DNA of 64,000 bases from Gemmatimonadales bacterium (GCA_036493755.1 DASXPG010000028.1:138-64137); one strand, 5' to 3'; positions 40,208 through 56,776 are shown, counted from the stretch's first letter. The notes: a model not told the origin generated them from the letters alone. Numbers and translations are program-made.

Positions 40208-40591
40208 ATGGCAGATCTCAAGTTCGTCTCCACCGATCGCGCTCCCAAGGCCATCGGCCCGTACAGCCAGGGCGTCATTGCCAACGGTTTCCTGTTTACC
40301 GCGGGCCAGGTCGCGTTCGATCCGGCCACGATGGAAATCGTCGCCGGAGACGTAAAGGTCCAGACAGCGCGGGTAATGGAAAATCTGCAGGCTGTGCTCA
40401 CCGCCGCGGGCACCAGCTTCGAGCGGGTGGTGAAGTGCACCGTCTTCCTGGCGACGATGGATGACTTCCCGGCCATGAACGAGGTCTATGCCCGGGCCTT
40501 CGGCGGCCACAAGCCGGCCCGCTCCACGGTGGCGGTAAAAACCCTCCCCAAGAACGCGCTGGTCGAAATCGACGTCGTCGCCGCCCTCTAG
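40208..40591 (+). CDS. ridA: RidA-family reactive intermediate deaminase
   Basis: APKAIGPYSQGVIANGFLFTAGQV...RVVKCTVFL...ARSTVAVKTLPKNALVEIDVVA. ATG at 40208. Confidence 0.9.
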   Translation: MADLKFVSTDRAPKAIGPYSQGVIANGFLFTAGQVAFDPATMEIVAGDVKVQTARVMENLQAVLTAAGTSFERVVKCTVFLATMDDFPAMNEVYARAFGGHKPARSTVAVKTLPKNALVEIDVVAAL

Positions 40592-40665
40592 GCGGTGCCT
40601 TCCGCATGGTCCGGCGAAATCCTATCTTAGCGGCCGTCCTTATGCCGCTTTCGAGGGGAGAACGC

Positions 40666-46072: not shown

Positions 46073-46951
46073 GTGATGGATCGGCTCTCGGATCTGGCGC
46101 ATCGGGCGGGCCTGGCGGTGCTGGCACAGGCCACCGGCTACGCGTTCCTCATGTACCTGGTCTTCTCGCTGCTGGTACTGTGGCTGGAGACCCGCCGAGG
46201 TGGGCGCGCCGGCCTGCTGCGCTCCCGCGCCTTCATGAACGATGTGCTGTACGCGCTCTTCTACCGGGGCGGTCTTTACGCCGTGTTCGTGTGGGCGTTG
46301 CTCGTCAATCTGTTCCAGCGGCAGCTCGCATTTCTGCAATTGGGGCTGCTACGTGACGTGCCGATGATTGTCTCGGTCCCTTTATACTGGCTGGTCGGTG
46401 ACTTCCTTTTTTACTGGTTTCACCGGCTGCAGCACCGCGTACCGGCATTGTGGGCATTTCATCGTGTTCACCACGCCGCGCAATCGCTGAACACCTTCAG
46501 CCAGAATCGCCGACATCCGGTCGAATACACGCTCAACAGCCTGGTGTTCTATCTGCCGCTGGCATTCGTGCTGGGCCTCTCGACCAAGTCGTGGGTCCCC
46601 TGGTTCATGACGGCACAGCTGCTCGAGTCGCTTCAGCATGCCCAGCTGGATTGGGGATTCGGGCCGTTGTACCGGCTGGTCGTAAGCCCGGTGTTCCACT
46701 CCATCCACCACTCCAGCGATCCCCGGCATTTCAACCGCAATTTCGGTCCGATGCTGAGCGTCTGGGACTATATCTTCGGGACCGCCGCGGCCGATGCCGT
46801 CAGACCTGCGCAGTACGGTATCGAGGGGACGGTGATGCCGGAATCGTTGGCCGCGCAAACGGTTGGTCCGTTCCTGGTGCTCGCGCGATCCGGCCTGCGG
46901 CTCGATGCCCCCACGTCGGCCGCGGCTGTAGAGCCTGCGCCGCCGCTATAA
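46073..46951 (+). CDS. Fatty acid hydroxylase / sterol desaturase superfamily membrane protein
   Basis: Multi-TM protein with the three His boxes of membrane di-iron hydroxylases (FHRLQH, HRVHH, HSIHHSSD). Confidence 0.85.
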   Translation: MMDRLSDLAHRAGLAVLAQATGYAFLMYLVFSLLVLWLETRRGGRAGLLRSRAFMNDVLYALFYRGGLYAVFVWALLVNLFQRQLAFLQLGLLRDVPMIVSVPLYWLVGDFLFYWFHRLQHRVPALWAFHRVHHAAQSLNTFSQNRRHPVEYTLNSLVFYLPLAFVLGLSTKSWVPWFMTAQLLESLQHAQLDWGFGPLYRLVVSPVFHSIHHSSDPRHFNRNFGPMLSVWDYIFGTAAADAVRPAQYGIEGTVMPESLAAQTVGPFLVLARSGLRLDAPTSAAAVEPAPPL

Positions 46952-47033
46952 CCTGGAGCATTGACGCATCGAGCCCCGCGCATCACCTTCTTGTTGCCGC
47001 GCACAGTCATCCGTCCTGTTTCCAGGGAGAGCC

Positions 47034-47150
47034 ATGCGTCCCGACGCCCAGAAGCGCCCGTACGAGCCGCCAACAGTCAAAGTGCTCGATGAGAGCGAAA
47101 TGCTGGCCCAGTTCCAGATCACCAGTGCCGGCACCAGCTGGTGGGGCTGA
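47034..47150 (+). CDS. Unannotated 38-aa ORF, a candidate RiPP precursor peptide: MRPDAQKRPYEPPTVKVLDESEMLAQFQITSAGTSWWG
   Basis: My own translation; the ORF is below the ORF-track size cutoff. ATG 47034 is preceded by AGGGAGAG, and the stop TGA is at 47148-47150. It carries a YxxPxV...VLD leader-like motif and a Ser/Thr/Trp-rich C-terminus. It is flanked by a kinase and lies near PqqD-like and AsnB-like genes. Confidence 0.6.
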   Translation: MRPDAQKRPYEPPTVKVLDESEMLAQFQITSAGTSWWG

Positions 47151-48129
47151 TCCGGCCGTCCACGCTGTAATTCCTTCGCACGATGAGCTGGCGTGCTTTG
47201 CGCGTCAGGCAGTCGGGCGCCGCTGGTATCGGTTTGCGGACGCGTTTCTCGCTCTGTCCGCGGATGACCCACCTTTTCTCGAACGGTTCCACGAGTTGTA
47301 TGGCGCGCTGGCGTCGGATTCCCCGCCGCCCGGCGCGACGGTGCTCGATTGTGTCCTCATCTCCGGTCAATCGGACCTGCCGGTAATCGTAGGGATCTCG
47401 TCACTCGGGAAGCCAGTGAACTCTCTGGCCGCACTGGTGACACGCACGGGCTATCAAGAGGCAGTCCCCGCGGAGCAATGGCAGCGGTTTCGCGCACCAC
47501 TCGCAACTCTCCCAGGGGTATCGATCAGTTGCGACTGGGTGCTTGCCGATCGCCATTCGAGCTGGCAGTGGCAGGTGGCGAACCTGGTGGTCAACCTCGT
47601 CCTCGCCCTCCAGCCTGAGTTCCTCTTCTTCCATGCGGGCGCCGTGAACCTCGGCGGTCGCGGGGTGCTGTTGCTGGGGGCAAGCGGCCGGGGGAAGACC
47701 AGTGTGGCGCTGGCGCTTGCCGGGCGGGGACATGTCTACTACGGAGACGAGATCGGTGCCGTGCGCGCCGCGACACGTGAACTGGTGCCGATACCGCGCT
47801 CGGCCATGGTGCGAGCGCCGGAAGTGCTCGGGGCGGATCCGGCGGCGCGGATTCGCGTGACCGTCGACCGTCATCCGCGGTATCCGGTCGCACTGGCGGG
47901 CCTGATTTGTCTGCGCGCATTCGCGGACCGGACGGTCCTTACACGGTCTCGACCCACTTCCGATATGCTCGGTTTGATTACTCCGATGTCCTGCTCACTG
48001 GCATCTCGCGGGCCCGCACAGCTGGCCCTCGATCTGCTCCGACTCATCGAGGACATTCCCTGTTACGTGCTGGACTCCGCATCGCCGGCCAGCGCCGCCG
48101 AAGCTATTGAGGCCGCATTGATGTCCTGA
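47089..48129 (+). CDS. HPr kinase-related P-loop kinase (HprK-like)
   Basis: FFHAGAVNLGGRGVLLLGASGRGKTSVALALAGRGHVYYGDEI matches the HprK/HprK-related kinase P-loop region. The start is uncertain. The first in-frame canonical start after the hydroxylase gene is ATG 47089, which is out of frame inside the 38-aa ORF. The next canonical in-frame start I see is a TTG roughly 200 nt downstream. Confidence 0.7.
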   Translation: MRAKCWPSSRSPVPAPAGGADPAVHAVIPSHDELACFARQAVGRRWYRFADAFLALSADDPPFLERFHELYGALASDSPPPGATVLDCVLISGQSDLPVIVGISSLGKPVNSLAALVTRTGYQEAVPAEQWQRFRAPLATLPGVSISCDWVLADRHSSWQWQVANLVVNLVLALQPEFLFFHAGAVNLGGRGVLLLGASGRGKTSVALALAGRGHVYYGDEIGAVRAATRELVPIPRSAMVRAPEVLGADPAARIRVTVDRHPRYPVALAGLICLRAFADRTVLTRSRPTSDMLGLITPMSCSLASRGPAQLALDLLRLIEDIPCYVLDSASPASAAEAIEAALMS

Positions 48130-49038
48130 CGCCCCCCCCGGACGTTTCCAGGCCCGAAGCCTCTGCGCCAATCGATCGACATCCAGAAACGTCAATACCA
48201 GCCATGTCTCCCCGACGTGGATGCTGAGAATGAGCATGATGCCCACCGCGAAAGCGAGCAGCACCGGCAGCAGGATTGCGCGGGCGATTTTCGAGAACAC
48301 CGCCAGCACGACCGACCATTCCAGCACTACCGTCACGATCCCGATGATCAGGCACAGCGTTGGGTGCGCTGCGAGCCAGAATGCCAGCGAGTGGAAACGC
48401 CACCTCGGGTCCAGCGCGAAAACAAGTAGCCAGCGACGAATGCTTTCGGCGCTGCTCCACCGCCAGCCACTTGCCTCGGCCTTCGCGAATGCGGCGAAGA
48501 GGTAGATCTGGGCAACGAAGAGCCAGGTGAGCCGGAGCGGCCAGCCATATCGCCACGACGGCTCATGATCTGAAGCCGGCGAACGCGGCCAGAGCTGGTA
48601 GCCGCCGGCGCCCGGTGCGCAGGCCAGAACCACCAGGATGAGCGGCGTGAGCGTCAGCCCGCGCGCAAAGGGCGTAGGTGTCCAGATGAAGGTTTCCAGC
48701 GGCGCGAGGTGATAGACGAGAAGGCTCGCGACCACGCAGGCCACGCGCGGGAGTACGCCGAGCGCCACGCATACCAGGGCGATGATCGCTATCGTTTGCA
48801 GGCTCTGCTCGAATACCGGGTGACCCGGGAAGAGCAGGTAGCGCCACCGGAGACCCGAAGGAATGCTTATCCAGAAGATCGGCAGCCCGGACACCGCCGC
48901 GTAGTTGCGGGAGAACATCATCCACAACGCGTGGAGCGCCACGAGCGACCGCACCCAGGTGAGATTCAGTGGCGACGCGGGCTCGAACCAGAATTCATCC
49001 CACAGCCGGCGCATCCGTTCTACCAGCCGATTCATCAT
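47995..49038 (-). CDS. HTTM-domain (vitamin-K-dependent gamma-carboxylase-like) integral membrane protein
   Basis: The start MMNRLVERMRRLWDEFWFEPASPLNLTWVRSLVALHALWMMF, followed by multiple TM helices, is typical of HTTM/SdpB-like proteins. ATG 49038 is in an ATGA overlap with the upstream gene. The 3' 135 nt overlap the convergent kinase gene. Confidence 0.7.
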   Translation of the reverse strand: MMNRLVERMRRLWDEFWFEPASPLNLTWVRSLVALHALWMMFSRNYAAVSGLPIFWISIPSGLRWRYLLFPGHPVFEQSLQTIAIIALVCVALGVLPRVACVVASLLVYHLAPLETFIWTPTPFARGLTLTPLILVVLACAPGAGGYQLWPRSPASDHEPSWRYGWPLRLTWLFVAQIYLFAAFAKAEASGWRWSSAESIRRWLLVFALDPRWRFHSLAFWLAAHPTLCLIIGIVTVVLEWSVVLAVFSKIARAILLPVLLAFAVGIMLILSIHVGETWLVLTFLDVDRLAQRLRAWKRPGGASGHQCGLNSFGGAGRRCGVQHVTGNVLDESEQIEGQLCGPARCQ

Positions 49039-49682
49039 TGTTGCGCTGGGAATGTGTAGAGGATAGTCCGCCGCATCGCAGCTGGATCGCGCGCCCGCGT
49101 CTCGACGTTCCAGTGCTCCCAATAGAGGCGAATGCCGACGAACGCGGTATTGGGAACGTCGTCGCGGTTTTGCCAGCGTCGGGCGAGGAGAAGGTGACTG
49201 GGCGCCGCGAGATCGCGGAGTCTCCGGGTCACCACGCCGGGCCACTGCCCGGCGCGAGCCGCGAGCCGCGCCGATTCGGTTTTTTTAAGCAGGAACGCGC
49301 CGACGCTGTCGCGCGCGGGACCGCTCAGCGAGTTGACGTTTCGCATGAGCCACGTGAGCAGCTCTTCGTAGGTGAATGGCTCCCAGGCGCGATAGTCGAT
49401 GGGGTATTCGTCGCCATTGCTGGTGACGGCGACGGCCTGAACCACGGCGTATGCTGAATCGGATACCTCGGTCGGACCGACGCGCTGCATGAGGCGCCAG
49501 TAAGAAAACGGCCAGAGATCGCGCTGAGAAATGCCCGCCAGGAATGAGACGCCCAGGATATAGGCGATGAAGCAATTGATCCAGCGGCGGCTTACAGCTT
49601 CGCCGCGACCGCCCGCGATGATCACGATCAGACCGAGTATGACGAAGCCGGCGAAGCCGAGTGCGGCAATGAGGTAGGTCAC
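49035..49682 (-). CDS. Hypothetical 2-TM membrane protein (partner of the HTTM protein)
   Basis: GTG 49682 (VTYLIAALGFAGFVILGLIVIIAGG) is in a GTGA overlap with the formyltransferase stop. Two TM helices precede a soluble domain. I recognise no family. Confidence 0.55.
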   Translation of the reverse strand: MTYLIAALGFAGFVILGLIVIIAGGRGEAVSRRWINCFIAYILGVSFLAGISQRDLWPFSYWRLMQRVGPTEVSDSAYAVVQAVAVTSNGDEYPIDYRAWEPFTYEELLTWLMRNVNSLSGPARDSVGAFLLKKTESARLAARAGQWPGVVTRRLRDLAAPSHLLLARRWQNRDDVPNTAFVGIRLYWEHWNVETRARDPAAMRRTILYTFPAQQ

Positions 49683-50575
49683 GCCGGGGCGGCCCGCCCG
49701 GCAGCCACGGCCGAAAGGTGCACCCGTCCATCGCGACACCAGAGTTCCCAGCCGTGGTCTCCACGGGTCACGATCCCCGGCCGTTCCAACGGATCCATGA
49801 CATCGTATCCATGCACCGATCGGTACTGCACTGGGCGACCGCGTTCATCCAGCAGCGGCTCATGAAAGCGTCCACACATCCCGGCGAGGAAATGCCAGAC
49901 CCGCTCGGCACTCCAGCTGTCGAACGCCACCATTGCCATGCCGGGGCGCACCGATGGCGCGCGCGTCGCGCTGGTCTCGTCTTGCTCCACCGGTGAGATT
50001 CCGTTCGCGAGCGCAATCAGTCCGATGCGGAAGAGATCGCCTCCGGCGGCCGAGGCCTGGAGGTACGCTTGCTCAACGGGGAGGCCTCGTGCCAGCGGCC
50101 AGCGACGCTGCGCCAGGATCGGACCGCTGTCGGCGCGCGCGGTCGCCACATGGAGTGTGATGCCTGTCTCGCGGTCGTCGTGGTAATAGGTCCAGAAAAA
50201 CGGATTCGCGCCGCGATGCCGCGGCAGCAACGAGGGATGCAGATTCACCACGCCTCGCGCCGGAAACTGAAGCACCTCGGCAGGAAGAACCCACGGAAAG
50301 AGTGCCACGCAGAGCAAATCCGGAGCGAGACGCGCCAGGCCCTGAAGAAGGCGCGGATCGCGGCGCGATGCGCAGCGAATCACCGGGATGCCTCGCTGCG
50401 CGGACCAGGCCGCTGCATCGTCGCCCAGCGCCGGACGACGGCGTACCATGCCAGCCGCGCGTGCGCGCCACCCGCCCTCGGGAAGCACCACCGCGGCGAT
50501 CTGGTGATCGCACGCGAGTGCCGTCAGCGAGTCGAGTGCAAGGGGTCCGCCGGTTGTGGCGAAGATGATCCGCAC
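49679..50575 (-). CDS. Formyltransferase (Fmt/ArnA-N-like)
   Basis: GTG 50575 gives an MRIIFATTGGP start, like Fmt. NLHPSLLPRHRGANPFFW is the formyltransferase catalytic box, followed by ADSGPIL. The listed start at 50689 would overlap the divergent gene. Confidence 0.8.
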   Translation of the reverse strand: MRIIFATTGGPLALDSLTALACDHQIAAVVLPEGGWRARAAGMVRRRPALGDDAAAWSAQRGIPVIRCASRRDPRLLQGLARLAPDLLCVALFPWVLPAEVLQFPARGVVNLHPSLLPRHRGANPFFWTYYHDDRETGITLHVATARADSGPILAQRRWPLARGLPVEQAYLQASAAGGDLFRIGLIALANGISPVEQDETSATRAPSVRPGMAMVAFDSWSAERVWHFLAGMCGRFHEPLLDERGRPVQYRSVHGYDVMDPLERPGIVTRGDHGWELWCRDGRVHLSAVAAGRAAPA

Positions 50576-50670
50576 GATACGTTCCTGCACGGCCGGAGGC
50601 GTGGCGGGTCTGACCGAGCAGCGAAGATGGGTGCAGTGCTTCGTGCCGTCAATCCAGAACAGGTGCCGGT

Positions 50671-51201
50671 GTGAGAGCTGACGCGGCACGAATCGAGGAC
50701 CCTCGGCTGCTGACCACAGCGGCCGAACTGTTCGCGCGCGCCGAGCGCACCATTGAGTGCTCGGTGCGCGGGACCAGCATGTCGCCCACGCTTCCGGACG
50801 GTTGCCGCATCCGGGTGCGGTGCGGGGTTCCGGCCCGCGTGCCCGTCGGCGAGATCGTGGTTCTCGCCGTCGCTCCGGGAATCCTCATCACCCATCGGGT
50901 GCTGAAGGCGCGAGGGTGGAATGGCGGCCGGGGCCATCTCCTGACGCAAGGCGATGGGGCGGTGCTTTGCGACGAGCCGATCCCGATGCGCGCGTTCGTC
51001 GGCTGCGTGATTGCCTTCGATGACGGCGCGGGCTGGATCGTCCCAGGGAATCGGCCACGACGGACGCTCGCGGCGCGATGGGGCGCCGCATCGCATCGGC
51101 TGCTCATCGCGGCCCTGATGGCCGTACATCCCGAGCTGGCGCGGCAGATCGCGCGCTTGTCGTACTTCCTTTGCGGGATTGATCCGCCGGCATCGGCTTG
51201 A
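50671..51201 (+). CDS. S24/S26-family serine peptidase, SipW/ER-type (Ser-His) signature
   Basis: RGTSMSPTLPDG (catalytic Ser box), GEIVVL and GILITHRVL. In the last box, bacterial SPase I and LexA have the catalytic Lys (KRV/KRL); a His at this position is typical of SipW/Sec11-type enzymes (from memory). Hydrophobic C-terminal tail. Confidence 0.65.
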   Translation: MRADAARIEDPRLLTTAAELFARAERTIECSVRGTSMSPTLPDGCRIRVRCGVPARVPVGEIVVLAVAPGILITHRVLKARGWNGGRGHLLTQGDGAVLCDEPIPMRAFVGCVIAFDDGAGWIVPGNRPRRTLAARWGAASHRLLIAALMAVHPELARQIARLSYFLCGIDPPASA

Positions 51202-51228
51202 CGATGCCTTCACGGGCACGGAACTTGG

Positions 51229-51531
51229 ATGCTCATGAACAATGGAGAAGCCACGATGCGTTACCATCGCGCGCCCGGTATCGAGGCGGCACCGATGCAG
51301 GACGAGACCGTCCTCTTCGATCCGAATACGAAGAAGTTCTGCATCCTGAACGCGACCGCTGCGCACCTGTGGGAGTCCCTCGAACGGCCGTGTTCCGCCG
51401 CCGAGCTGGCCGCGTCGATCGTGGGAGCCTTCGACGGGGTCGACCCGAAGATCGCGGAGCGTGACGTCCAGGTCGCGCTGAAGGACCTGGTGGGCCTGGG
51501 CATCGTCGGCGCCAGCGGCGCGGACGCCTAA
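51229..51531 (+). CDS. PqqD-family protein (RiPP recognition element-like peptide chaperone)
   Basis: ETVLFDPNTKKFCILNATAAHLWESLERPCSAAELAASIVGAFD...AERDVQVALKDLVGLGIV is the classic PqqD/RRE pattern. The start is ATG 51229 or ATG 51256. Confidence 0.8.
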   Translation: MLMNNGEATMRYHRAPGIEAAPMQDETVLFDPNTKKFCILNATAAHLWESLERPCSAAELAASIVGAFDGVDPKIAERDVQVALKDLVGLGIVGASGADA

Positions 51532-51551
51532 CGCTGATCCGGGGGTCAATC

Positions 51552-52109
51552 ATGGAGTTGTCCGTTCGCGGGCGCGGCGATGCCGTCGCGACATTCCGTT
51601 TCATCAATGTCCATCTCATGGAAACACTGGCGGGCTGGGTCCCGACGACGCCGGAGCTGGAGGTCAAGGTCCTGTTCGGCCGCCATCTCTGGGATTTCGC
51701 GCAGCACGCCGACGCGTTCGGCAAGCGCGCGGCGGAGCTTCGTCTCCAGCTCCACGCTTCTCGCGCGCCGACCGCCGAATTGCAAGGCGTCCTCGATGAT
51801 CTGCGGAGGACAACGCGCACGGCGCAGCGGCTGGGGCGACTCTACCACGGCGTTGTCCCGGGTGTCGAACGGCTCTACACCGCGTACCTCGCGCAGGTCG
51901 ACGAGCTGATGGACGAGCCGACCGTCCGCATCATCGGGCACGGGCTGCTCGACACCGGTCGCATGGGGCGCGAAGCCGAAAGCCTGAGTGCTCAAGGCGG
52001 GCCGTCGCTGGAGAACGGCGCCGGATCCACGGCATCCGGCGGACCGTTCGGGTCACTCGATCGCGTGATCGACTTCCGGCCTGCGGTCGCCGCCGAGGCC
52101 GAGGCCTGA
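51552..52109 (+). CDS. Hypothetical helical protein, possibly a degenerate ferritin-like (DUF455-related) subunit
   Basis: By eye, HLMETLAGWVPTTPELEVKVLFGRHLWDFAQHADAFGKRAAELR parallels LEIAAQALVDFADAPWDLKLRLARQAADEARHTALLYRRLRELG of the next gene. The first ExxH reads FAQH, so one ligand is lost. Confidence 0.4.
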   Translation: MELSVRGRGDAVATFRFINVHLMETLAGWVPTTPELEVKVLFGRHLWDFAQHADAFGKRAAELRLQLHASRAPTAELQGVLDDLRRTTRTAQRLGRLYHGVVPGVERLYTAYLAQVDELMDEPTVRIIGHGLLDTGRMGREAESLSAQGGPSLENGAGSTASGGPFGSLDRVIDFRPAVAAEAEA

Positions 52110-52138
52110 GCGTCGCCACGGCGTTCGCCACCAGGGAA

Positions 52139-52921
52139 GTGCGAGGGGTCACGCTCCAGGAGGACCCCGCGCGCGAGCCCTGCTTCCACTGCGTTACGCT
52201 GGACTCGGAGATGCAGGAGTGGCCCGGGATGTCGGATATTTCCCGCCGCGAGCGCCTGCATCGCCACATGAACAACGAGTGCGGCGCGCTCGAGATCGCG
52301 GCCCAGGCCCTGGTCGATTTTGCCGACGCGCCGTGGGACCTGAAGCTTCGTCTCGCGCGCCAGGCGGCGGACGAAGCGCGGCACACCGCGCTCCTCTACC
52401 GGCGGTTGCGGGAGTTGGGCGGCACCAAGGGTGAATTCCCGGTCGCGAATATCGAGTGGGGCATTACCGGGATGATCGAAAACCTCGCGGGCCGGCTGGC
52501 GATCCAGAACCGGACTTTCGAGGCGGGACTCATCGACCTGCTGGGCAATCTGCGAAATACCTGGCGCGAAGCCGGTGATCACGCCACCGCCGACCTGCTC
52601 GACGGCATCCTCGCGGACGAGATCGTGCACGTCCGGTACGGCAATCGCTGGATTCGCCGCCTCACCGAGCAACGGCCGGCCGTATTGCTCCAGGTCGCGA
52701 TGGCGGTGCGTCTGCTGCGCCAGGCTCTGCGAGGGCTCGCGCCGGCGGACGGCGATGTCAATCGCTCCGGCCTGGTGCTCACGACCAAGCTACCGCCGGC
52801 GGTCTACGTATCCGGGCGGCTCGAAGCCGAATTCACGGAGGCCGAGGTCGAAGAGGTTCTGCGTCAGGCCGGATTCCGATCCATCCTTCCGCACCCACTC
52901 GTGGAGCAGGCCCGTGGCTGA
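52139..52921 (+). CDS. Ferritin-like di-iron protein (DUF455-like)
   Basis: Two ExxH boxes about 100 residues apart (ADEARH ... ADEIVH), an intervening conserved Glu (NRTFEAG), and an all-helical character. Confidence 0.6.
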   Translation: MRGVTLQEDPAREPCFHCVTLDSEMQEWPGMSDISRRERLHRHMNNECGALEIAAQALVDFADAPWDLKLRLARQAADEARHTALLYRRLRELGGTKGEFPVANIEWGITGMIENLAGRLAIQNRTFEAGLIDLLGNLRNTWREAGDHATADLLDGILADEIVHVRYGNRWIRRLTEQRPAVLLQVAMAVRLLRQALRGLAPADGDVNRSGLVLTTKLPPAVYVSGRLEAEFTEAEVEEVLRQAGFRSILPHPLVEQARG

Positions 52922-53660
52922 AGCCGTCGTCCCCCTCGATCCGGCCTTGTTCGGTCCCGGCCAGGCGCGTGACGCGCGCTTTACCGTGCGCGAACGCTGG
53001 GGCGAGATGGCCAATAACCCGCCGCGCACGCCCGCCTACCAACGGGAGTTTCTCCATCGCCAGGCCAATGAAGAGGCCAACGTCATGGAGCAGGCCGCGC
53101 AGAGTCTCGTGGACTTCCCGGACGAGCCATGGGAGATCCGCCTCTGCCTGGCACGCCAATGCGCCGATGAGGGCCGTCACGTCCTGCTCTACCTGCGCCT
53201 GCTGCGCGAGCGTGGCATCGGCATCGGCGAATATCCGGTGCTGAACTTCCAGTACCGCGTGCTGAGCCGCATCGACTCGCTGGTGGGCCGGCTCGCCGTG
53301 GAGAACCGGACCTTCGAGGCAGATGGGCTGGATGCCGCGACGTTCGGCGTCGCGGAGGCAAGGAAGGACGGCGACCATGCTCTCGCCGACGTACTCGACG
53401 CCCAGCAAGCGGACGAAATCGTGCATGTCGGGTTTGCCAACGCCTGGATCCGGCGCGAGGTCGAGCGCGATCCGCGCACCGTGTTGCGCATGGCAGCGGC
53501 GATCACCCGGGCCGCGCGCGCGTTCGCCACGGTGTTCGAAGGCGGCATGCAGGTGCGCTACCCGGTGGCGCAGGACGAGCGCCGAGAGGCCGGTTTTCAG
53601 GATCGGGAAATCCGGGTCGCCGCGGACCTGTCCGCTGCCCGGCGTCGCGGGGAGTCGTGA
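52914..53660 (+). CDS. Ferritin-like di-iron protein (DUF455-like), tandem paralog
   Basis: Same box pattern as the upstream gene (ADEGRH ... ADEIVH, NRTFEAD). GTG 52914 overlaps the upstream gene by 8 nt. The listed 361-aa ORF start is an out-of-frame extension. Confidence 0.6.
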   Translation: MAEAVVPLDPALFGPGQARDARFTVRERWGEMANNPPRTPAYQREFLHRQANEEANVMEQAAQSLVDFPDEPWEIRLCLARQCADEGRHVLLYLRLLRERGIGIGEYPVLNFQYRVLSRIDSLVGRLAVENRTFEADGLDAATFGVAEARKDGDHALADVLDAQQADEIVHVGFANAWIRREVERDPRTVLRMAAAITRAARAFATVFEGGMQVRYPVAQDERREAGFQDREIRVAADLSAARRRGES

Positions 53661-53664
53661 TGCC

Positions 53665-55572
53665 GTGTGCGGAATAGCGGGTTTCGCGAGCGCATCGCCC
53701 GATGCCGATGATGTAAATCGGCTCCGACGCGCGCTGGGAGTTCTCCAGCACCGCGGACCCGACGATGAAGGTTGGCTGACCCACCCCACCACCCCTGACC
53801 GCGGCCCGCTCGTCGGGCTCGGCAATCGCAGGCTCCGCATCATCGATCTCTCGCCTGGTGGCCATCAGCCCATGACGACGGCTGACGGCCGGTACTCCAT
53901 CACGTACAACGGCGAGATCTACAACTACCGCGAGCTACGCTCCGACCTCGAAACGGCCGGGCATCGCTTCGTGTCGAGCAGCGACACCGAAGTTCTGCTC
54001 CACGCCTGGGCCGCGTGGGGTACGGATGCCTTGCCGCGCCTGGACGGGATGTTTGCTTTTGCCATACTCGATCGTGTCGAGCAACGGCTGACGCTGGCAC
54101 GCGACCCCGCCGGGATCAAGCCGTTGTTCTTTCACGTCACGCTCCCGGACGCCATCGTGTTCGCTTCCGAGATCAAGGCGATTCGCGAGTTGCGGACCGT
54201 CGGCTCGCGCGTCAATCCAACACGCTTGAGAGATTACCTGGTCGAGCGCTTTACCGGTCGCGGCGACGCGACACTGCTGGAGGACGTTCAGCAGGTGCCG
54301 CCGGGTCACTATCTCACCGTCTCGCTGCGGCAGCCGGGCGTTCCTGCGCTAACGCGTTACTGGGAGTACGGCACCGAAGAAAGCCGCCCCGTGAGTTTCG
54401 CGTCGGCCGTGGACGAGCTTCGGGATCTGCTGACGGACAGCGTTCGCAGTCACCTGCGCAGCGACGTGCCGCTCGGCTTCTTGCTGTCCGGCGGCCTGGA
54501 TTCATCCTCGGTCCTGACGATCGCGCGCCAGGTGCTCGGTGCCGATGCCGATCTGCGAACGTACAGCTATATCGACGATGACCCGATGCTCAACGAGAGC
54601 ATCTATCAGGTGTGCGTGACGGCAGCGAATCGCGCGACACGTCATGCTGTCCGTGTCGAACCGGAAGAGCTGGTGCGGGACTGGGACCAGTTCATGGACA
54701 TCCAGCAGGAGCCGTTCTTCAGCCCGGTCGTGTACGTGCAGTACCGGGTATTGGAGCGCGCCCGCGAGGACGGCGTCAAGGTGATCCTCGGGGGCCAGGG
54801 CGCGGACGAGCTCTTCGCGGGGTACCAGCGGTTCGCGACCGCCCGCGCCGCCTCGCTCTGGCGCCAGGGCCGCTGGATGGACGCGGGCCGCCTCATCGGC
54901 TCGGCAGCGCAACGATGGCAAACGCCGCGGCTCTCGTTGATGCGAACCAGCCTTGCGCTCGCGCTGCCGCCGCTGGTGGCCGACGCCTATCGGGCGGTCC
55001 GCCATGCCGGGCGGGCGACCAGTGTGCCCGACTGGCTCAACACCGGTTGGTTCACGGGGCAGGGCGTGCCGCCCGTCAGGCAATGGTCTCCGGCCGGCGA
55101 TGACGTGCTGCGGGAATTCCTGGAATACACCCTGACGAGCACGCACCTTCAGGATCTCATGCGCTTCGAGGATCGCAGCGGGATGGCCCTGTCCATGGAG
55201 AGCCGCGTACCGTTTCTCGCGCCGCGCCTGCTGCGCTTCGCCTCGGCGTTGCCGGAGGAATTCCTCGTTTCGGAGAGCGGGAAGTCCAAGTTCATCTTGC
55301 GCGAGGCAATGCGCGGCTTGGTACCGGACGCGATCCTCGACCGGCGTGTGAAGGTCGGCTTCTCGGTGCCGGTTGTACGGTGGCTGGTGCAGTCCTCGTC
55401 GTGGGTTGAGGGCAAACTGGCGATGGCCGAGGATTGTCCCGCGGTGTTCGCGCCGGCTCTTCGCAGGCGCTGGCAACAGGTCCAGCAGGGTGACGTCGTC
55501 GGCGCATACGAGCTGTGGGGTATCTTCTCGCTGTTGACGTGGGCCGAGCGGGGGGCCATGCAATGGCAGTAA
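53665..55572 (+). CDS. Asparagine synthetase B-family glutamine amidotransferase
   Basis: The GTG 53665 start is followed by CGIAGF (the Ntn glutaminase Cys). Also HRGPDD, YNGEIYN, and the PP-loop LSGGLDSS in the synthetase domain. Confidence 0.9.
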   Translation: MCGIAGFASASPDADDVNRLRRALGVLQHRGPDDEGWLTHPTTPDRGPLVGLGNRRLRIIDLSPGGHQPMTTADGRYSITYNGEIYNYRELRSDLETAGHRFVSSSDTEVLLHAWAAWGTDALPRLDGMFAFAILDRVEQRLTLARDPAGIKPLFFHVTLPDAIVFASEIKAIRELRTVGSRVNPTRLRDYLVERFTGRGDATLLEDVQQVPPGHYLTVSLRQPGVPALTRYWEYGTEESRPVSFASAVDELRDLLTDSVRSHLRSDVPLGFLLSGGLDSSSVLTIARQVLGADADLRTYSYIDDDPMLNESIYQVCVTAANRATRHAVRVEPEELVRDWDQFMDIQQEPFFSPVVYVQYRVLERAREDGVKVILGGQGADELFAGYQRFATARAASLWRQGRWMDAGRLIGSAAQRWQTPRLSLMRTSLALALPPLVADAYRAVRHAGRATSVPDWLNTGWFTGQGVPPVRQWSPAGDDVLREFLEYTLTSTHLQDLMRFEDRSGMALSMESRVPFLAPRLLRFASALPEEFLVSESGKSKFILREAMRGLVPDAILDRRVKVGFSVPVVRWLVQSSSWVEGKLAMAEDCPAVFAPALRRRWQQVQQGDVVGAYELWGIFSLLTWAERGAMQWQ

Positions 55573-55760
55573 CGGTGTTTCCCGGGACGCCCGACACGGC
55601 CTGGATCAACGAGCTCAGCGACGAGGAGTGCATGGAGGTGTTCTGGCTCTACGTCGATCCGCCCGAACCATTCCTGAATGCGCACCCGGCCCCCTTGCTG
55701 GGCGCGGCGATGCGGCATGCGCTCCGGCTCATCGTGGCCGATCAGCGGGGACCGGCGTGA
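55563..55760 (+). CDS. Hypothetical 65-aa protein
   Basis: ATG 55563 overlaps the asnB-like stop by 10 nt. The stop is in a GTGA overlap with the next gene. The coupling suggests the ORF is real. No recognisable domain. Confidence 0.4.
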   Translation: MAVTVFPGTPDTAWINELSDEECMEVFWLYVDPPEPFLNAHPAPLLGAAMRHALRLIVADQRGPA

Positions 55761-56776
55761 ACGACACCTCGACCGACCGCGCCTTCTGCGAGCGCATGTT
55801 GCCCGGTGTGTCGCGCACCTTCGCGCTCACCATCCGGCTGCTGCCGCCGGGCCTCGAGTATCCGGTGCTGGTCGCGTACCTCCTGTGCCGCGTCGCCGAC
55901 ACCATCGAAGACTCGACCCTCTTGCCGGTGGCGTTGAAGGTGTCGTTGCTCGAACACTTCCGGACTTGCCTCGACGACGACGGTCCCGATGCCGCGGCGC
56001 TGCACGCGGCATTCGCCGGTACGTCCGACGAAGAGACGCTGGCCCGCGAAGCCGACATCGTGCTGCGCGAATTTCGTCGTCTGCCTGGAGCGCAACGCGC
56101 GGCGATCCGGCCCTGGGTGCAGGAGATGTGCACCGGCATGGCATCGTTCGTCGCCGCGGGCGGCAGCGAAGGCTCGGGCCGGCTCCAGATGCTGGCCAGC
56201 GTCGAGGAGCTGGAGCGCTACTGCTATTTCGTCGCCGGGACCGTGGGTCACCTGCTGACGGCGCTCTTCCGGCTGCACGATGGCGAGATGACCGAGGCGC
56301 AGTACCAGCGCCTTGAATCCCTCGCAACCAGCTTCGGCCTCGGTCTCCAGATGACCAACATCGTGAAGGACGTGGCCGATGACCGCGGGCGGGGCGTGAG
56401 CTTCGTGCCGCGCGAGCTGTTCGAGACCAGCGGCATCAAGCCGGAGGATCTGCCGGCGGCGGCGCGCGATGGATTGGCGGGGCGGGTGATGCAGCCGCTG
56501 ATCGCGCGGGCCCGGCGGCACCTCGCGTCGGCCCTCGACTACTGCACCACGCTGCCGCGCCGGCAGTATCGCATCCGGCTCTTCTGCCTGACGTCGCTCT
56601 ACTTCGCGGCGCGCACCCTGCGGCTGGCGCGGCGCGAACCGGCGCTGCTGGGCGGCGAGCGCAAGATCAAGATCAGCCGTGGCGCGGTGTATCGGACCCT
56701 GGCGATGACCTATCTCGTCGCGCCCGTCGATGCTTTGGTCCGCGCGTATTTCGTTCGGCTCGAAGGAGCCGGCTAG
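55757..56776 (+). CDS. Squalene/phytoene synthase family protein (squalene synthase-like)
   Basis: FCERMLPGVSRTFALTIRLLP is the N-terminal box of squalene-synthase-type enzymes. Two Asp-rich motifs are present (VADTIED and KDVADD). GTG at 55757. Confidence 0.8.
   Translation: MNDTSTDRAFCERMLPGVSRTFALTIRLLPPGLEYPVLVAYLLCRVADTIEDSTLLPVALKVSLLEHFRTCLDDDGPDAAALHAAFAGTSDEETLAREADIVLREFRRLPGAQRAAIRPWVQEMCTGMASFVAAGGSEGSGRLQMLASVEELERYCYFVAGTVGHLLTALFRLHDGEMTEAQYQRLESLATSFGLGLQMTNIVKDVADDRGRGVSFVPRELFETSGIKPEDLPAAARDGLAGRVMQPLIARARRHLASALDYCTTLPRRQYRIRLFCLTSLYFAARTLRLARREPALLGGERKIKISRGAVYRTLAMTYLVAPVDALVRAYFVRLEGAG

What the first reader, a model, noticed from the sequence alone, without database searches (positions are those of the whole stretch)
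46073..56776. Candidate undescribed peptide-modification (RiPP-like) gene cluster: lasso-type recognition parts combined with non-lasso chemistry
About 10.7 kb are organised as tightly coupled units.

(a) Plus strand: a membrane fatty-acid-hydroxylase-family protein, a 38-aa ORF and an HprK-like kinase.

(b) Minus strand: a formyltransferase, then a 2-TM protein (GTGA overlap), then an HTTM membrane protein (ATGA overlap).

(c) Plus strand, divergent from (b): a SipW-like S26 peptidase, a PqqD-like protein, three ferritin-like proteins, an AsnB-family amidotransferase, a 65-aa ORF and a squalene-synthase-family protein. All are separated by 30 nt or less, or overlap.

A PqqD/RRE protein, an Asn-synthetase homolog, an HprK-like kinase and a YxxPx(L/V) leader are the recognisable parts of kinase-associated lasso-peptide loci. 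Four things do not fit a lasso system:
- There is no transglutaminase-like B2 cysteine protease; a Ser/His S26 peptidase is present instead.
- After the leader-like VLDESEML segment, the peptide has no Asp/Glu to act as macrolactam acceptor.
- The AsnB homolog keeps the N-terminal catalytic Cys (CGIAGF) of a real glutamine amidotransferase.
- The locus adds oxidative and other enzymology not known for lassos: two or three DUF455-like di-iron proteins, a membrane hydroxylase, an HTTM protein and a formyltransferase.

NCBI/TIGRFAM names such as 'HprK-related kinase A' and 'HPr-rel-A system PqqD family peptide chaperone' exist for an uncharacterised pairing (from memory), and this locus may be a variant of it. 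By eye the 46-49.7 kb part looks slightly less GC-rich than its surroundings. The cluster boundaries are uncertain: the hydroxylase, the squalene-synthase-like gene and the flanking kinases may or may not belong to it.
Basis: partly seen in the sequence, partly recalled or inferred. Interest (0 to 1): 0.9.

Follow-up and report, generated by a model that had tools for sequence, protein, structure and literature searches.

The report
Undescribed Trp-Trp peptide-modification gene cluster
This stretch of an uncultured soil bacterium's genome (Gemmatimonadales) encodes a small peptide with an invariant Trp-Trp pair plus a conserved set of enzymes to modify it; the same combination recurs in at least 80 uncultured bacterial species from several phyla and I found no description of it.

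Summary
All 14 ORFs exist with the stated families and junctions.

In 80 related loci, all from metagenome-assembled genomes (Gemmatimonadota, Acidobacteriota, Proteobacteria and others), there is a fixed core:
- PqqD
- a small ORF
- an HprK-like kinase
- a 185-aa ferritin-fold protein
- two DUF455 di-iron proteins
- a soluble Ser/His S26 peptidase

Frequent additions are AsnB, a formyltransferase/2-TM/HTTM trio, an FA-hydroxylase and NTP_transf_5.

The 38-aa ORF belongs to a precursor family with invariant Y..P (the lasso-type YxxPxL leader motif), invariant Q (preceded by F in all but one), and invariant WW. The residues flanking WW vary. In relatives, an EpiD-type flavoprotein occurs only where the precursor ends in Cys (p=3e-7), as expected of a tailoring enzyme.

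It is not a lasso system: there is no B2 protease and no Asp/Glu acceptor, and the AsnB is a true glutamine amidotransferase. It also falls far below the NCBIfam HPr-rel-A cut-offs.

Boundaries are 46,073–55,760. The squalene-synthase gene and both Ser/Thr kinases are not part of it.

The chemistry is inferred, not shown. No paper or curated model describes the system.

The parts
46073..46951 (+). Membrane FA-hydroxylase-superfamily di-iron protein (accessory tailoring enzyme)
   Evidence: PF04116 2e-30. The three His boxes (HxxxH, HxxHH, HxxHH) are invariant in 34 homologues. Present in 21/37 full-flank related loci. 45% identical to the L002 copy.
47034..47150 (+). Precursor peptide, 38 aa: MRPDAQKRPYEPPTVKVLDESEMLAQFQITSAGTSWWG
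   Evidence: GGGAGAG ribosome-binding site. A homologous small ORF is present in 68/82 loci. Invariant Y, P, Q and WW, with F before Q in 65/66. Codon-position variability 0.38/0.26/0.52. 296 called small proteins in the public collection match the profile.
47125..48129 (+). HprK-like P-loop kinase. The only in-frame start upstream of the conserved N-terminus is GTG 47125, which overlaps the precursor ORF by 26 nt
   Evidence: Hpr_kinase_C 1.7e-6; TIGR04352 34 bits. In 75 homologues the Walker A Gly190/Lys191 are invariant, position 192 is always Thr or Ser, and Asp208 is kept in 74/75. Present in 74/80 loci and 37/37 full-flank loci. Start analysis.
47995..49038 (-). HTTM-domain polytopic membrane protein (accessory)
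   Evidence: PF05090 3e-4 alone; 6/8 family members hit it, best 3e-13. Multiple TM segments. 44% identical to the L002 copy. Present in 23/37 full-flank loci, always next to the 2-TM gene.
49035..49682 (-). 2-TM protein with a soluble C-terminal domain and no known family; obligate partner of the HTTM gene
   Evidence: No Pfam or NCBIfam hit. ATGA overlap with the HTTM start and GTGA overlap with the formyltransferase stop. Present in 23/37 full-flank loci.
49679..50590 (-). Formyltransferase (fmt/ArnA-N type)
   Evidence: Formyl_trans_N 1e-23; TIGR00460 88 bits, below its 201.5 cut-off. Catalytic Asn112/His114/Asp150 are invariant and the SLLP motif nearly so in 31 homologues. Present in 24/37 full-flank loci.
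50671..51201 (+). Soluble SipW/ER-type Ser/His S26 peptidase (candidate leader peptidase)
   Evidence: TIGR02228 9e-7. Ser36, His75, Arg76 and Asp95 are invariant in 65 homologues. No terminal TM segment. Present in 34/37 full-flank loci.
51229..51531 (+). PqqD-family RRE protein (leader-binding chaperone)
   Evidence: PF05402 6e-12 over the full domain; best NCBIfam hit is lasso PqqD NF033530, 34 bits. Present in 34/37 full-flank loci, normally directly upstream of the precursor.
51552..52109 (+). 185-aa ferritin-fold protein without canonical di-iron ligands (probable non-catalytic partner subunit); signature gene of the system
   Evidence: No Pfam or NCBIfam family. AlphaFold pLDDT 93. Best PDB matches are PaaC/PaaA, YciF, Dps and CADD, with TM about 0.55-0.62 and E about 0.02. 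401 homologues. Natural fusions to DUF455 exist.
52139..52921 (+). DUF455 ferritin-like di-iron protein, paralogue a
   Evidence: PF04305 2e-28. Ligand set E47, E79-x-x-H82, E128, E161-x-x-H164 kept in 79 of 81 aligned homologues, with none substituted. Present in 80/80 loci.
52914..53660 (+). DUF455 ferritin-like di-iron protein, paralogue b
   Evidence: PF04305 1e-23. Ligand set E54, E86-x-x-H89, E135, E168-x-x-H171 kept in 78-80 of 80 homologues. Present in 79/80 loci.
53665..55572 (+). Glutamine-hydrolysing AsnB-type amidotransferase with N-terminal Cys
   Evidence: TIGR01536 414 bits, above its 267 cut-off; lasso cyclase NF033535 268 bits, below 525. Starts GTG-TGC. An (M/V/L)CG(I/V) start is present in 35 of the 46 homologues from related loci; the SGGxDS PP-loop is conserved. 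Present in 29/37 full-flank loci.
55563..55760 (+). 65-aa conserved protein of unknown function, found only in Gemmatimonadota copies of the cluster
   Evidence: 65% identical to the L002 copy. Present in 16/80 loci and in 10 of the 12 Gemmatimonadota full-flank loci. No family.

Best explanation
Window 46,073-55,760 is one biosynthetic gene cluster for a ribosomally made, enzymatically modified peptide (RiPP) of a family I could not find described anywhere.

Shown:
- The 38-aa ORF is a member of a conserved precursor family. The N-terminal part has a conserved leader, (K/R)P-x-Y-x-x-P-x-(I/V/L)-x-V-M-x-E-x-E-(V/I)-L-x-x-F-Q. The C-terminal part has an invariant Trp-Trp flanked by variable residues.
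- It always travels with a PqqD/RRE protein, an HprK-like P-loop kinase, a three-gene ferritin-like set (two DUF455 proteins with complete E/ExxH/E/ExxH di-iron sites, plus a 185-aa ferritin-fold protein without them), and a soluble Ser/His S26 peptidase.
- The predicted catalytic residues are invariant or nearly invariant in every enzyme family.

Inferred:
1. PqqD binds the YxxPx(I/V/L) leader motif as lasso B1 proteins do, and presents the peptide to the other enzymes.
2. The DUF455a/DUF455b/185-aa proteins form a heteromeric O2-dependent di-iron oxygenase. This is the class-defining enzyme, and it oxidises the core. The invariant Trp-Trp is the most likely target (hydroxylation or cross-link).
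3. The kinase phosphorylates a core Ser or Thr. In relatives that carry NTP_transf_5, the phosphate is probably decorated further.
4. The S26 peptidase removes the leader in the cytoplasm.
5. The AsnB enzyme has an intact glutaminase Cys, and the core has no Asp or Glu. It therefore probably amidates a carboxylate, most plausibly the C-terminus.
6. The formyltransferase, the 2-TM/HTTM pair and the membrane FA-hydroxylase form an accessory module for tailoring or export at the membrane.
For: Gene families and active sites.

Synteny:
- All 13 genes are conserved in rearranged order in L001-L006.
- In 37 related loci with full 10-kb flanks, kinase, p185, DUF455a and DUF455b are present in 37/37. 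The precursor is in 36, S26 in 34, PqqD in 34, AsnB in 29, the formyltransferase in 24, 2-TM and HTTM in 23, and FA-hydroxylase in 21. NTP_transf_5 is in 30.

Precursor family:
- 66 unique sequences with invariant Y, P, Q and WW (F before Q in 65/66).
- No Asp/Glu after FQ in 57/66; Ser/Thr after FQ in all 69 precursor ORFs examined.
- Codon-position variability 0.38/0.26/0.52.
- 296 called homologues in public data.

Tailoring genes track the core sequence: the HFCD flavoprotein occurs in 11 of 21 loci whose precursor has Cys at or near its C-terminus and in 0 of 46 others, Fisher p=2.7e-7. Loci of the Proteobacteria type have Cys-rich cores, a third DUF455, an ABC exporter and an AsnB-like gene lacking the Cys.

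p185 has a ferritin fold most like PaaC/PaaA. Natural p185-DUF455 fusion proteins exist, which argues for a physical complex.

The S26 peptidase has no membrane anchor.

Precedent: in lasso systems the YxxPxL motif spans -17 to -12, and the RRE protein accelerates phosphorylation of the precursor by an HPr-kinase homologue (PMC10368454; PMC8498205).
Against: - No product, modification or enzyme activity has been observed. Every chemical step is inferred from family membership.
- The target of the di-iron enzymes is a guess from invariance.
- The cleavage site is ambiguous: before the invariant FQ if lasso spacing holds, or after T-x-A if the signal-peptidase -3/-1 rule holds.
- The weak family scores for the kinase (34 bits) and peptidase (29 bits) leave their exact activities open.
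- In this genome the precursor and kinase sit 3.5 kb from PqqD, across a divergent operon. This is atypical for the family.
- All relatives are metagenome-assembled genomes, so expression is unknown.
- The strong conservation of the precursor, including FQ and WW, would also fit a peptide-derived cofactor.
Confidence: 0.7

Rival explanations
1. The peptide is the scaffold for a small peptide-derived cofactor or metabolite, in the style of PQQ or mycofactocin. One example would be a tryptophan-derived quinone excised from the WW motif. On this reading the product is not a secreted modified peptide.
For: - The precursor is unusually conserved for a RiPP, with invariant Q and WW (F before Q in 65/66) across four or more phyla.
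- Usually there is one precursor copy per locus.
- A PqqD chaperone, oxygenases and a dedicated peptidase recall PQQ and mycofactocin logic (established knowledge of those pathways).
- The cluster sits among housekeeping genes.
Against: - There is no radical-SAM enzyme, which starts both the PQQ and mycofactocin pathways.
- Residues flanking WW and the C-terminal tails are variable and lineage-specific.
- C-terminal Cys co-varies with an EpiD-type decarboxylase.
- ABC exporters flank a minority of loci (nine by HMM search), mainly of the Proteobacteria type.
- These are traits of peptide natural products.
Confidence: 0.13
2. It is a divergent lasso-peptide cluster. The AsnB homologue makes a macrolactam, and the S26 peptidase substitutes for the B2 protease.
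For: - PqqD scores best against lasso B1 models (NF033530, 2e-8).
- The leader has YxxPx(I/V/L).
- An HPr-kinase homologue and an Asn-synthetase homologue are typical of phosphorylated lasso loci.
- Loci of the Proteobacteria type have an AsnB-like protein without the glutaminase Cys, and some have a Glu in the core.
Against: - No transglutaminase-like B2 is found in the window regions scanned (38.4-62.6 kb, plus ten ORFs at 18.9-34.9 kb). No additional conserved family that could supply one emerged from clustering ORFs of the 80 loci.
- 57/66 precursors have no Asp or Glu after FQ.
- The window AsnB passes the true asparagine-synthase model (414 against a cut-off of 267) and fails the lasso cyclase model (268 against 525). 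It also keeps Cys1.
- The invariant genes of the system are the ferritin-like trio, not AsnB, which is present in 29/37 full-flank loci.
Confidence: 0.03
3. There is no peptide natural product. The small ORF is a regulatory or signalling peptide, or a kinase substrate. The ferritin-like proteins serve iron or oxidative-stress functions, and the membrane enzymes modify lipids (OlsE-like hydroxylase, ArnA-like formyltransferase).
For: - The FA-hydroxylase's best NCBIfam match is ornithine-lipid hydroxylase OlsE (4e-22).
- The formyltransferase resembles fmt and ArnA.
- Ferritin-fold proteins such as YciF and Dps are stress proteins.
- The accessory genes are absent from about 40% of loci.
Against: - Tight operon coupling of PqqD, peptide, kinase, ferritin-like trio and peptidase across phyla.
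- Complete oxygenase-type di-iron ligand sets in both DUF455 paralogues.
- A dedicated soluble S26 peptidase.
- Tailoring genes co-vary with the peptide C-terminus.
- No regulator domain is present in the core.
Confidence: 0.06
4. The three units are unrelated operons adjacent by chance, and the 38-aa ORF is a spurious ORF in GC-rich DNA.
For: GC-rich DNA produces many spurious ORFs: 155 ORFs of at least 35 aa in 17 kb. The three units lie on different strands.
Against: - 13 genes are conserved together in rearranged order at 36-65% identity.
- The core recurs in 80 species-level genomes.
- The small ORF is conserved at the protein level, with third-position variation dominating.
- It was called independently by other pipelines.
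Confidence: 0.01

Closest known systems
Kinase-associated (phosphorylated) lasso peptide clusters, e.g. paeninodin, pseudomycoidin, BsfA
   Same: - A PqqD-type RRE protein.
- A leader with YxxPx(L/I/V).
- An HPr-kinase homologue that acts on the precursor, in an RRE-assisted way in BsfK/BsfB1.
- An Asn-synthetase-family gene.
- A nucleotidyltransferase gene also occurs in some lasso clusters, and NTP_transf_5 is in 51/80 relatives of this locus; I did not test whether the two belong to the same family.

Sources: PMC8498205, PMC10368454.
   Different: - No B2 cysteine protease; a soluble Ser/His S26 peptidase is present instead.
- No Asp/Glu acceptor in the core.
- The AsnB is a genuine glutamine amidotransferase.
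- The invariant enzymes are three ferritin-like proteins that no lasso cluster has.
- The core has an invariant Trp-Trp.
NCBIfam 'HPr-rel-A system' (HprK-related kinase A, TIGR04352, plus PqqD family chaperone, TIGR04353); uncharacterised
   Same: Pairing of an HprK-like P-loop protein with a PqqD protein. These are the best or near-best NCBIfam hits for both window proteins.
   Different: Scores are far below the curated cut-offs (34.2 against 200; 23.8 against 35), and only the P-loop segment of the kinase aligns. I could not test whether the HPr-rel-A system has a WW precursor, DUF455 genes or an S26 peptidase.
Multicomponent ferritin-like di-iron oxygenases, especially phenylacetyl-CoA oxygenase PaaA/PaaC
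   Same: A catalytic ferritin-like subunit with E/ExxH/E/ExxH ligands is paired with a ferritin-fold subunit lacking them. The best structural matches of p185 are PaaC and PaaA. Fusion proteins support a complex.
   Different: The structural similarity is at fold level only (E about 0.02, TM about 0.55, 13-18% identity). The substrate here would be a peptide. There are two catalytic-type paralogues. No reductase or ferredoxin partner gene is in the cluster.
Iron-dependent oxidases of other RiPP classes (MNIO/DUF692 enzymes such as MbnBC)
   Same: The logic is the same: a non-heme iron oxidase plus a partner protein acts on a leader-bearing precursor (PMC9060507, PMC12257519; listed).
   Different: The fold is unrelated (TIM-barrel MNIO against a four-helix ferritin-like bundle). 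No DUF692 gene is present here.
Dedicated S26 maturation peptidases (SipW for TasA; SodX for Ni-SOD)
   Same: S26 family with a Ser/His-type catalytic motif. A weak hit to the Ni-SOD maturation protease model TIGR02754 (0.003) and to archaeal/ER-type signal peptidase TIGR02228. These enzymes do dedicated pro-peptide removal rather than general secretion (established knowledge).
   Different: No membrane anchor. The substrate has no signal-peptide-like hydrophobic segment. The gene is embedded in an RRE-containing operon.

Membership tests
Lasso peptide biosynthetic cluster | Transglutaminase-like B2 cysteine protease for leader removal | tested here: not met
   Pfam scans of the ORFs tested between 38.4 and 62.6 kb and of ten ORFs between 18.9 and 34.9 kb show none. 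Clustering ORFs of the 80 related loci gave no additional widely shared family that could supply one.
Lasso peptide biosynthetic cluster | Lasso cyclase: an Asn-synthetase homologue without glutaminase Cys, scoring above NF033535 or NF033561 | tested here: not met
   NF033535 268 bits against a cut-off of 525; NF033561 73 against 300. It passes TIGR01536 (414 against 267) and keeps Cys1.
Lasso peptide biosynthetic cluster | Core peptide with an Asp/Glu acceptor at position 7-9 | tested here: not met
   The window peptide has no Asp or Glu after the leader segment. 57/66 family members have none after FQ.
Lasso peptide biosynthetic cluster | PqqD-type RRE (B1) and a YxxPxL leader motif | tested here: met
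   PF05402 6e-12. Y and P are invariant, and I/V/L is at +5 in 63/66 precursors. Motif definition from PMC10368454. Binding itself was not tested.
NCBIfam HPr-rel-A system | Kinase scores at least 200 bits on TIGR04352 | tested here: not met
   34.2 bits, residues 157-229 only. The L013 homologue scores 39.7 bits.
NCBIfam HPr-rel-A system | PqqD protein scores at least 35 bits on TIGR04353 | tested here: not met
   23.8 bits.
RiPP biosynthetic cluster (generic definition) | A conserved, translated small ORF next to the enzymes, with a conserved leader and a more variable core | tested here: met
   Leader positions are invariant or nearly so. The residues flanking WW and the C-terminal tail vary by lineage.
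RiPP biosynthetic cluster (generic definition) | RRE domain protein co-encoded with the precursor | tested here: met
   PqqD is present in 34/37 full-flank loci, usually immediately upstream of the precursor.
RiPP biosynthetic cluster (generic definition) | Tailoring genes co-vary with core sequence | tested here: met
   The HFCD flavoprotein occurs only in loci whose precursor ends in Cys (11 of 21 loci with a C-terminal or near-C-terminal Cys, against 0 of 46 others; p=2.7e-7). This was seen in relatives; the window itself has neither.
RiPP biosynthetic cluster (generic definition) | A post-translationally modified product is made | not testable with these tools
   Needs expression and mass spectrometry.
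PQQ / mycofactocin / SynChlorMet-type peptide-derived systems | A radical-SAM (SPASM) maturase acting with the PqqD protein | tested here: not met
   No radical-SAM domain in any cluster ORF. ScmD model 26.9 bits against a cut-off of 100.
Housekeeping type I signal peptidase | A membrane-anchored S26 enzyme acting on Sec signal peptides | tested here: not met
   The catalytic Ser/His motif is present. There is no terminal TM segment in the enzyme and no hydrophobic segment in the peptide. TIGR02228 28.8 bits against a cut-off of 51.85.
DUF455 (PF04305) ferritin-like family | Passes the Pfam gathering score; di-iron ligands E/ExxH/E/ExxH present | tested here: met
   100 and 85 bits against a cut-off of 34.3. 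Ligands are kept in at least 78 of the 80-81 homologues of both paralogues.

The most novel reading that the evidence does not exclude
This is the founding example of a new RiPP class, spread through uncultured Gemmatimonadota, Acidobacteriota and Proteobacteria. The class-defining step would be oxidation of an invariant Trp-Trp (hydroxylation or cross-linking) by a heteromeric DUF455 di-iron oxygenase. That enzyme would be recruited through a lasso-type PqqD/YxxPxL interaction, and a soluble S26 Ser/His peptidase would act as leader peptidase. If so, it would give DUF455 its first biochemical function that I know of. It could also give bacterial HTTM proteins and an HprK-like kinase roles in peptide maturation outside lasso systems.
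Probability: 0.45. Interest if true: 0.85.

Novelty: new variant of a known kind. Interest (0 to 1): 0.75.

Why it matters
RiPP classes are defined by their chemistry, and new classes regularly bring new enzymology and new bioactive scaffolds.

- This system links two protein families of unknown function (DUF455 and the 185-aa ferritin-fold family) and an unusual leader peptidase type to a defined peptide substrate. Their function therefore becomes directly testable.
- It is widespread in soil phyla that are almost uncultured and whose secondary metabolism is largely unread: 80 species-level genomes were kept in a single capped scan, 296 precursor clusters were found, and about 1,000 representative p185-like proteins.
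- Standard lasso rules would be expected to miss it, because it has no B2 protease.
- It shows lasso-type recognition parts (PqqD, the YxxPxL leader, an HPr-kinase homologue) working as a portable module with unrelated chemistry.

Tried and rejected
- **Kinase homologue search.** It returned only the window protein itself and one relative. The word-index search is too insensitive for this divergent family, so I switched to the 185-aa protein as the anchor.
- **Sequence search of DUF455a against the PDB.** Only marginal ferritin/ADO/TMO-type hits, and no close structure.
- **Promoter and terminator scan of 45.8-57 kb.** At or below shuffle expectation, so uninformative for operon structure.
- **Literature searches.** Terms covered DUF455, HPr kinase, PqqD, ferritin-like, signal peptidase, nucleotidyltransferase and RRE-containing clusters. 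Only lasso papers and unrelated hits came up. No description of this system was found, within a library that lacks most subscription journals.
- **Single-linkage clustering of six-frame ORFs.** It merged families through long stop-to-stop ORFs and antisense shadows. For example, the 'NTP' cluster also hit FMT, FAH and AsnB. I replaced it with iterated HMM counts.
- **SdpA/SdpB-like reading of the 2-TM/HTTM pair.** Considered from memory. No NCBIfam hit supports it.
- **GC dip at 46-50 kb as a sign of horizontal transfer.** Too small and not unique in the window.
- **Squalene synthase and the flanking Ser/Thr kinases as cluster members.** Rejected on co-occurrence: 0/80 and 8-9/80 loci.
- **Second structure-prediction job.** Not used.

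Full report
**1. What is in the window**

The DNA is about 67% GC, so raw ORF lists are noisy: 155 ORFs of at least 35 aa in 17 kb.

| Coordinates | Strand | Gene | Evidence |
|---|---|---|---|
| 46073-46951 | + | Membrane FA-hydroxylase | PF04116 2e-30 |
| 47034-47150 | + | 38-aa ORF | GGGAGAG ribosome-binding site |
| 47125-48129 | + | HprK-like P-loop protein | |
| 47995-49038 | - | HTTM membrane protein | |
| 49035-49682 | - | 2-TM protein | No family |
| 49679-50590 | - | Formyltransferase | Formyl_trans_N 1e-23 |
| 50671-51201 | + | S26 peptidase | TIGR02228 9e-7 |
| 51229-51531 | + | PqqD | PF05402 6e-12 |
| 51552-52109 | + | 185-aa protein ('p185') | No family |
| 52139-52921 | + | DUF455, paralogue a | PF04305 2e-28 |
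| 52914-53660 | + | DUF455, paralogue b | PF04305 1e-23 |
| 53665-55572 | + | AsnB | TIGR01536, 414 bits |
| 55563-55760 | + | 65-aa ORF ('p65') | No family |
| 55757-56776 | + | SQS_PSY | PF00494 3e-53 |

- All junctions in the plus-strand operon are 29 nt or less, or overlap.
- The source is a Gemmatimonadales metagenome-assembled genome.
- The surrounding genes are housekeeping or ordinary: FTHFS, NusA, IF-2, TruB, RibF, Ser/Thr kinases and an RCC1-repeat protein. None is a transglutaminase-like protease.

**2. Is it one system?**

*The nearest relative.* The kinase has only one detectable relative by word-indexed search. The contigs carrying that relative (L001-L006) contain homologues of all 13 genes from the FA-hydroxylase to the 65-aa ORF. 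Identities are 36-65% and the gene order differs. These contigs also carry an NTP_transf_5 gene and a DCC1-like gene, and they lack a squalene synthase.

*The wider family.* I used p185 as the anchor. It has 401 homologues, all annotated 'hypothetical'. A scan of one genome per GTDB species found 92 relatives, of which the best 80 loci were kept. All 80 are metagenome-assembled genomes. By record title, 30 are Gemmatimonadota, 32 Acidobacteriota and 14 Proteobacteria. One each is Acidimicrobiia, Rokubacteria, Methylomirabilia and Chloroflexota.

*Co-occurrence.* The table covers the 37 loci with full 10-kb flanks (NTP_transf_5).

| Gene | Loci out of 37 |
|---|---|
| Kinase, p185, DUF455a, DUF455b | 37 each |
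| Small ORF | 36 |
| S26 peptidase | 34 |
| PqqD | 34 |
| NTP_transf_5 | 30 |
| AsnB | 29 |
| Formyltransferase | 24 |
| 2-TM and HTTM | 23 each |
| FA-hydroxylase | 21 |
| 65-aa ORF | 10 (10 of the 12 Gemmatimonadota loci) |
| Squalene synthase | 0 |

The usual order is PqqD, peptide, kinase, p185, DUF455a, DUF455b, S26. The flanking Ser/Thr kinases appear in only 8-9 of the 80 loci.

*Conclusions on boundaries.*
- The functional unit in the window is 46,073-55,760.
- The window carries a rearranged version, in which the peptide and kinase are separated from PqqD.
- The squalene-synthase gene overlaps the p65 stop codon but is a lineage-specific passenger.

**3. The small ORF is a precursor peptide**

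An iterated HMM over six-frame ORFs finds a homologous small ORF in 68 of 82 loci, counting the window and L002. Many of the loci without one are truncated.

Across 66 unique sequences:
- Tyr, Pro (Y-x-x-P), Gln and the Trp-Trp are invariant. Phe precedes the Gln in 65 of 66 (one has Tyr).
- The consensus is (K/R)P-x-Y-E-x-P-x-(I/V/L)-x-V-M-x-E-x-E-(V/I)-L-x-x-F-Q-(I/V/M)-T-x-A-...-W-W-...
- After FQ, 57 of 66 sequences have no Asp or Glu, and 60 of 66 have no Lys or Arg. All 69 precursor ORFs examined contain Ser or Thr there.

Mean pairwise nucleotide differences at codon positions 1, 2 and 3 are 0.378, 0.260 and 0.522. That is the pattern of a translated sequence under purifying selection. 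Other pipelines called the ORF independently. A profile search of the public protein collection returns 296 clusters of 41-76 aa, all named 'hypothetical' or unnamed.

Three core styles are visible:
- Gemmatimonadota: FQITSAxxSWWG(M). The window belongs here.
- Acidobacteriota: FQITQ(S/A)MxxWWxxxxC.
- Proteobacteria and a few other phyla: FQMTAAEISxAxCWWxxCPxxCP.

The conserved part is the leader. The variable positions flank WW.

**4. Tailoring genes track the core sequence**

- An HFCD flavoprotein (PF02441, the EpiD/LanD type) occurs in 11 loci. All 11 have a precursor ending in Cys. It is absent from all 46 loci whose precursor lacks a Cys at or near the C-terminus (Fisher p=2.7e-7).
- The third core style comes with an extra DUF455 gene, often an ABC exporter, and an AsnB-like protein without the glutaminase Cys. 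It lacks the formyltransferase/2-TM/HTTM trio.

This co-variation is what RiPP families show. It argues against a housekeeping role.

**5. The enzymes look active**

Conservation in the homologue alignments:
- **Kinase:** Walker A Gly190/Lys191 are invariant, the next position is always Thr or Ser, and Asp208 is kept in 74 of 75.
- **S26 peptidase:** Ser36, His75, Arg76 and Asp95 are invariant in 65 sequences. This is the SipW/ER-type Ser/His arrangement.
- **Both DUF455 paralogues:** the E, ExxH, E, ExxH ligand set is kept in at least 78 of the 80-81 sequences.
- **FA-hydroxylase:** all eight His of the three His boxes are kept in 34 of 34.
- **Formyltransferase:** Asn, His and Asp are kept in 31 of 31.
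- **AsnB:** an (M/V/L)CG(I/V) start is present in 35 of the 46 homologues from related loci, plus the SGGxDS PP-loop.

The S26 peptidase has no terminal transmembrane segment, and the peptide has no signal-like hydrophobic stretch. This is therefore not general secretion machinery.

p185 models confidently (pLDDT 93) as a ferritin-like helical bundle. Its best PDB matches are PaaC and PaaA of phenylacetyl-CoA oxygenase, then YciF, Dps and CADD. That similarity is at fold level only (E about 0.02, TM 0.55-0.62). p185 lacks an ExxH pair.

A full HMM search gives about 1,000 representative relatives at E≤1e-3 and 355 at E≤1e-10. Seven of the ten longer hits I scanned are natural fusions of a p185-like domain to a DUF455 domain. 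This is Rosetta-stone evidence that the two work as a complex.

**6. Most likely mechanism (inferred)**

1. PqqD binds the YxxPx(I/V/L) leader, as lasso B1 proteins bind YxxPxL at positions -17 to -12. In the lasso system Bsf, the RRE protein also accelerates phosphorylation of the precursor by the HPr-kinase homologue (PMC10368454; PMC8498205).
2. The DUF455a/DUF455b/p185 complex is the class-defining O2-dependent oxidase. The only invariant core feature is Trp-Trp, so that is the best guess for its target.
3. The kinase phosphorylates a core Ser or Thr. Thr at FQ+2 is present in 56 of 66 sequences. Ser or Thr directly before WW is present in 41 of 66.
4. NTP_transf_5, where present, may decorate the phosphate, as the (possibly unrelated) nucleotidyltransferase does in pseudomycoidin.
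5. The S26 peptidase removes the leader. Two cleavage sites are compatible with the data:
   - before the FQ pair, if lasso spacing holds (core FQITSAGTSWWG);
   - after T-x-A, if the signal-peptidase -3/-1 rule holds (core GTSWWG).
6. AsnB has an intact glutaminase Cys, and the core has no acidic residue. It most plausibly amidates the C-terminal carboxylate.
7. The formyltransferase, the 2-TM/HTTM pair and the FA-hydroxylase form an accessory membrane-associated module. HTTM membership is supported at family level: 6 of 8 members hit PF05090, best 3e-13.

None of these steps has been observed.

**7. Comparison with known systems**

- **Lasso clusters.** The locus fails three of the four defining features: the B2 protease, a cyclase-type Asn-synthetase homologue, and an acceptor residue in the core. 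It shares only the RRE and leader motif.
- **NCBIfam HPr-rel-A pairing.** This is the closest curated relative of the kinase and PqqD proteins, but both score far below the cut-offs.
- **PQQ, mycofactocin and SynChlorMet systems.** These are excluded because there is no radical-SAM enzyme.
- **Curated models.** No NCBIfam model (June 2026 release) covers p185, the DUF455 pair, the 2-TM protein or the 65-aa protein. Pfam covers only the DUF455 pair, as a domain of unknown function.
- **Literature.** Seven full-text searches found no paper linking these parts. That library lacks most subscription journals, so a description elsewhere cannot be excluded.

**8. Verdict**

The locus is a member of a large, phylogenetically broad gene-cluster family that appears undescribed and follows RiPP logic. 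It combines lasso-like recognition parts with a ferritin-like di-iron trio and an S26 leader peptidase.

I rate it a new variant of a known kind: RiPP logic with new class-defining enzymes. The chemistry remains to be determined experimentally.

Noticed in passing
Related loci, e.g. L066:4466-5152, L050:7807-8427, L070:7722-8387: An HFCD flavoprotein (PF02441, EpiD/LanD type) is present only in loci whose precursor ends in Cys: 11 of 21 loci with a C-terminal or near-C-terminal Cys against 0 of 46 others. This suggests oxidative decarboxylation of the C-terminal Cys in the Acidobacteriota subtype. It is not present in the window.
   Followed up: partly
Related loci, e.g. L050:12505-13650, L009:12136-13236: A His-rich polytopic membrane protein of about 370 aa with no Pfam family lies downstream of DUF455b in 32/80 loci (in L009, between DUF455b and S26). 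It has motifs such as PHY(L/Y)SSF, YHVSxQSxG(I/L)LS(I/L)YR and HFYLDGxxWAF. It is absent from the window.
   Followed up: partly
Proteins P0156, P0172, P0183, P0186, P0217, P0219, P0272 (public collection): Natural fusion proteins of 409-550 aa carry an N-terminal p185-like domain and a C-terminal DUF455 domain. This points to a broader family of two-domain ferritin-like proteins. Their genomic context could not be retrieved.
   Followed up: partly
window 47995-48129: The kinase (+) and HTTM (-) ORFs converge and overlap by 135 nt. The last roughly 45 residues of the HTTM ORF are not conserved in the L002 homologue, so the overlap is probably read-through to the first available stop codon in GC-rich DNA.
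   Followed up: partly
window 47125-47296: The public (JGI) gene call starts the kinase at TTG 47296. This removes about 57 residues, part of which aligns with the L002 homologue. The only in-frame upstream start is GTG 47125, inside the precursor ORF (26-nt overlap), which suggests translational coupling or a non-canonical start.
   Followed up: partly
window 55757-56776: A squalene/phytoene-synthase-family gene overlaps the stop of the 65-aa ORF (GTGA) and abuts the Ser/Thr kinase-TPR gene that starts at 56777. It is found in none of the 80 related loci. It is either a passenger in the operon or a strain-specific addition.
   Followed up: partly
window 55563-55760 and L002:4522-4749: A small acidic protein (65-75 aa) with the motif ECM(E/D)(V/I)FWLYVDPPEPFL is found only in Gemmatimonadota versions of the cluster (10 of 12 full-flank loci). 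It has no family and no obvious role; immunity, chaperone or regulator are possible.
   Followed up: partly
window 40465-41937 and 43613-45943: A 490-aa protein (48% identical to a 435-aa protein that directly flanks the cluster in L002) and a Ser/Thr kinase with Big_2 domains are neighbours of the cluster only in a few close relatives (L010, L012, L033). This is conserved local synteny within Gemmatimonadales rather than cluster membership.
   Followed up: partly
window 59247-62570: A large (1107-aa) protein has many RCC1 repeats after an N-terminal region that carries only a marginal, sub-threshold Pfam hit. It lies downstream of the kinase-TPR gene and is unrelated to the finding.
   Followed up: no
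L035 and L074: These two loci (L035 8659-8880 and 15125-15502; L074 8221-8880 and 16846-17094) carry two separate copies of the precursor gene with identical cores (FQVPVVAGSWWG), one before the kinase and one after PqqD.
   Followed up: no
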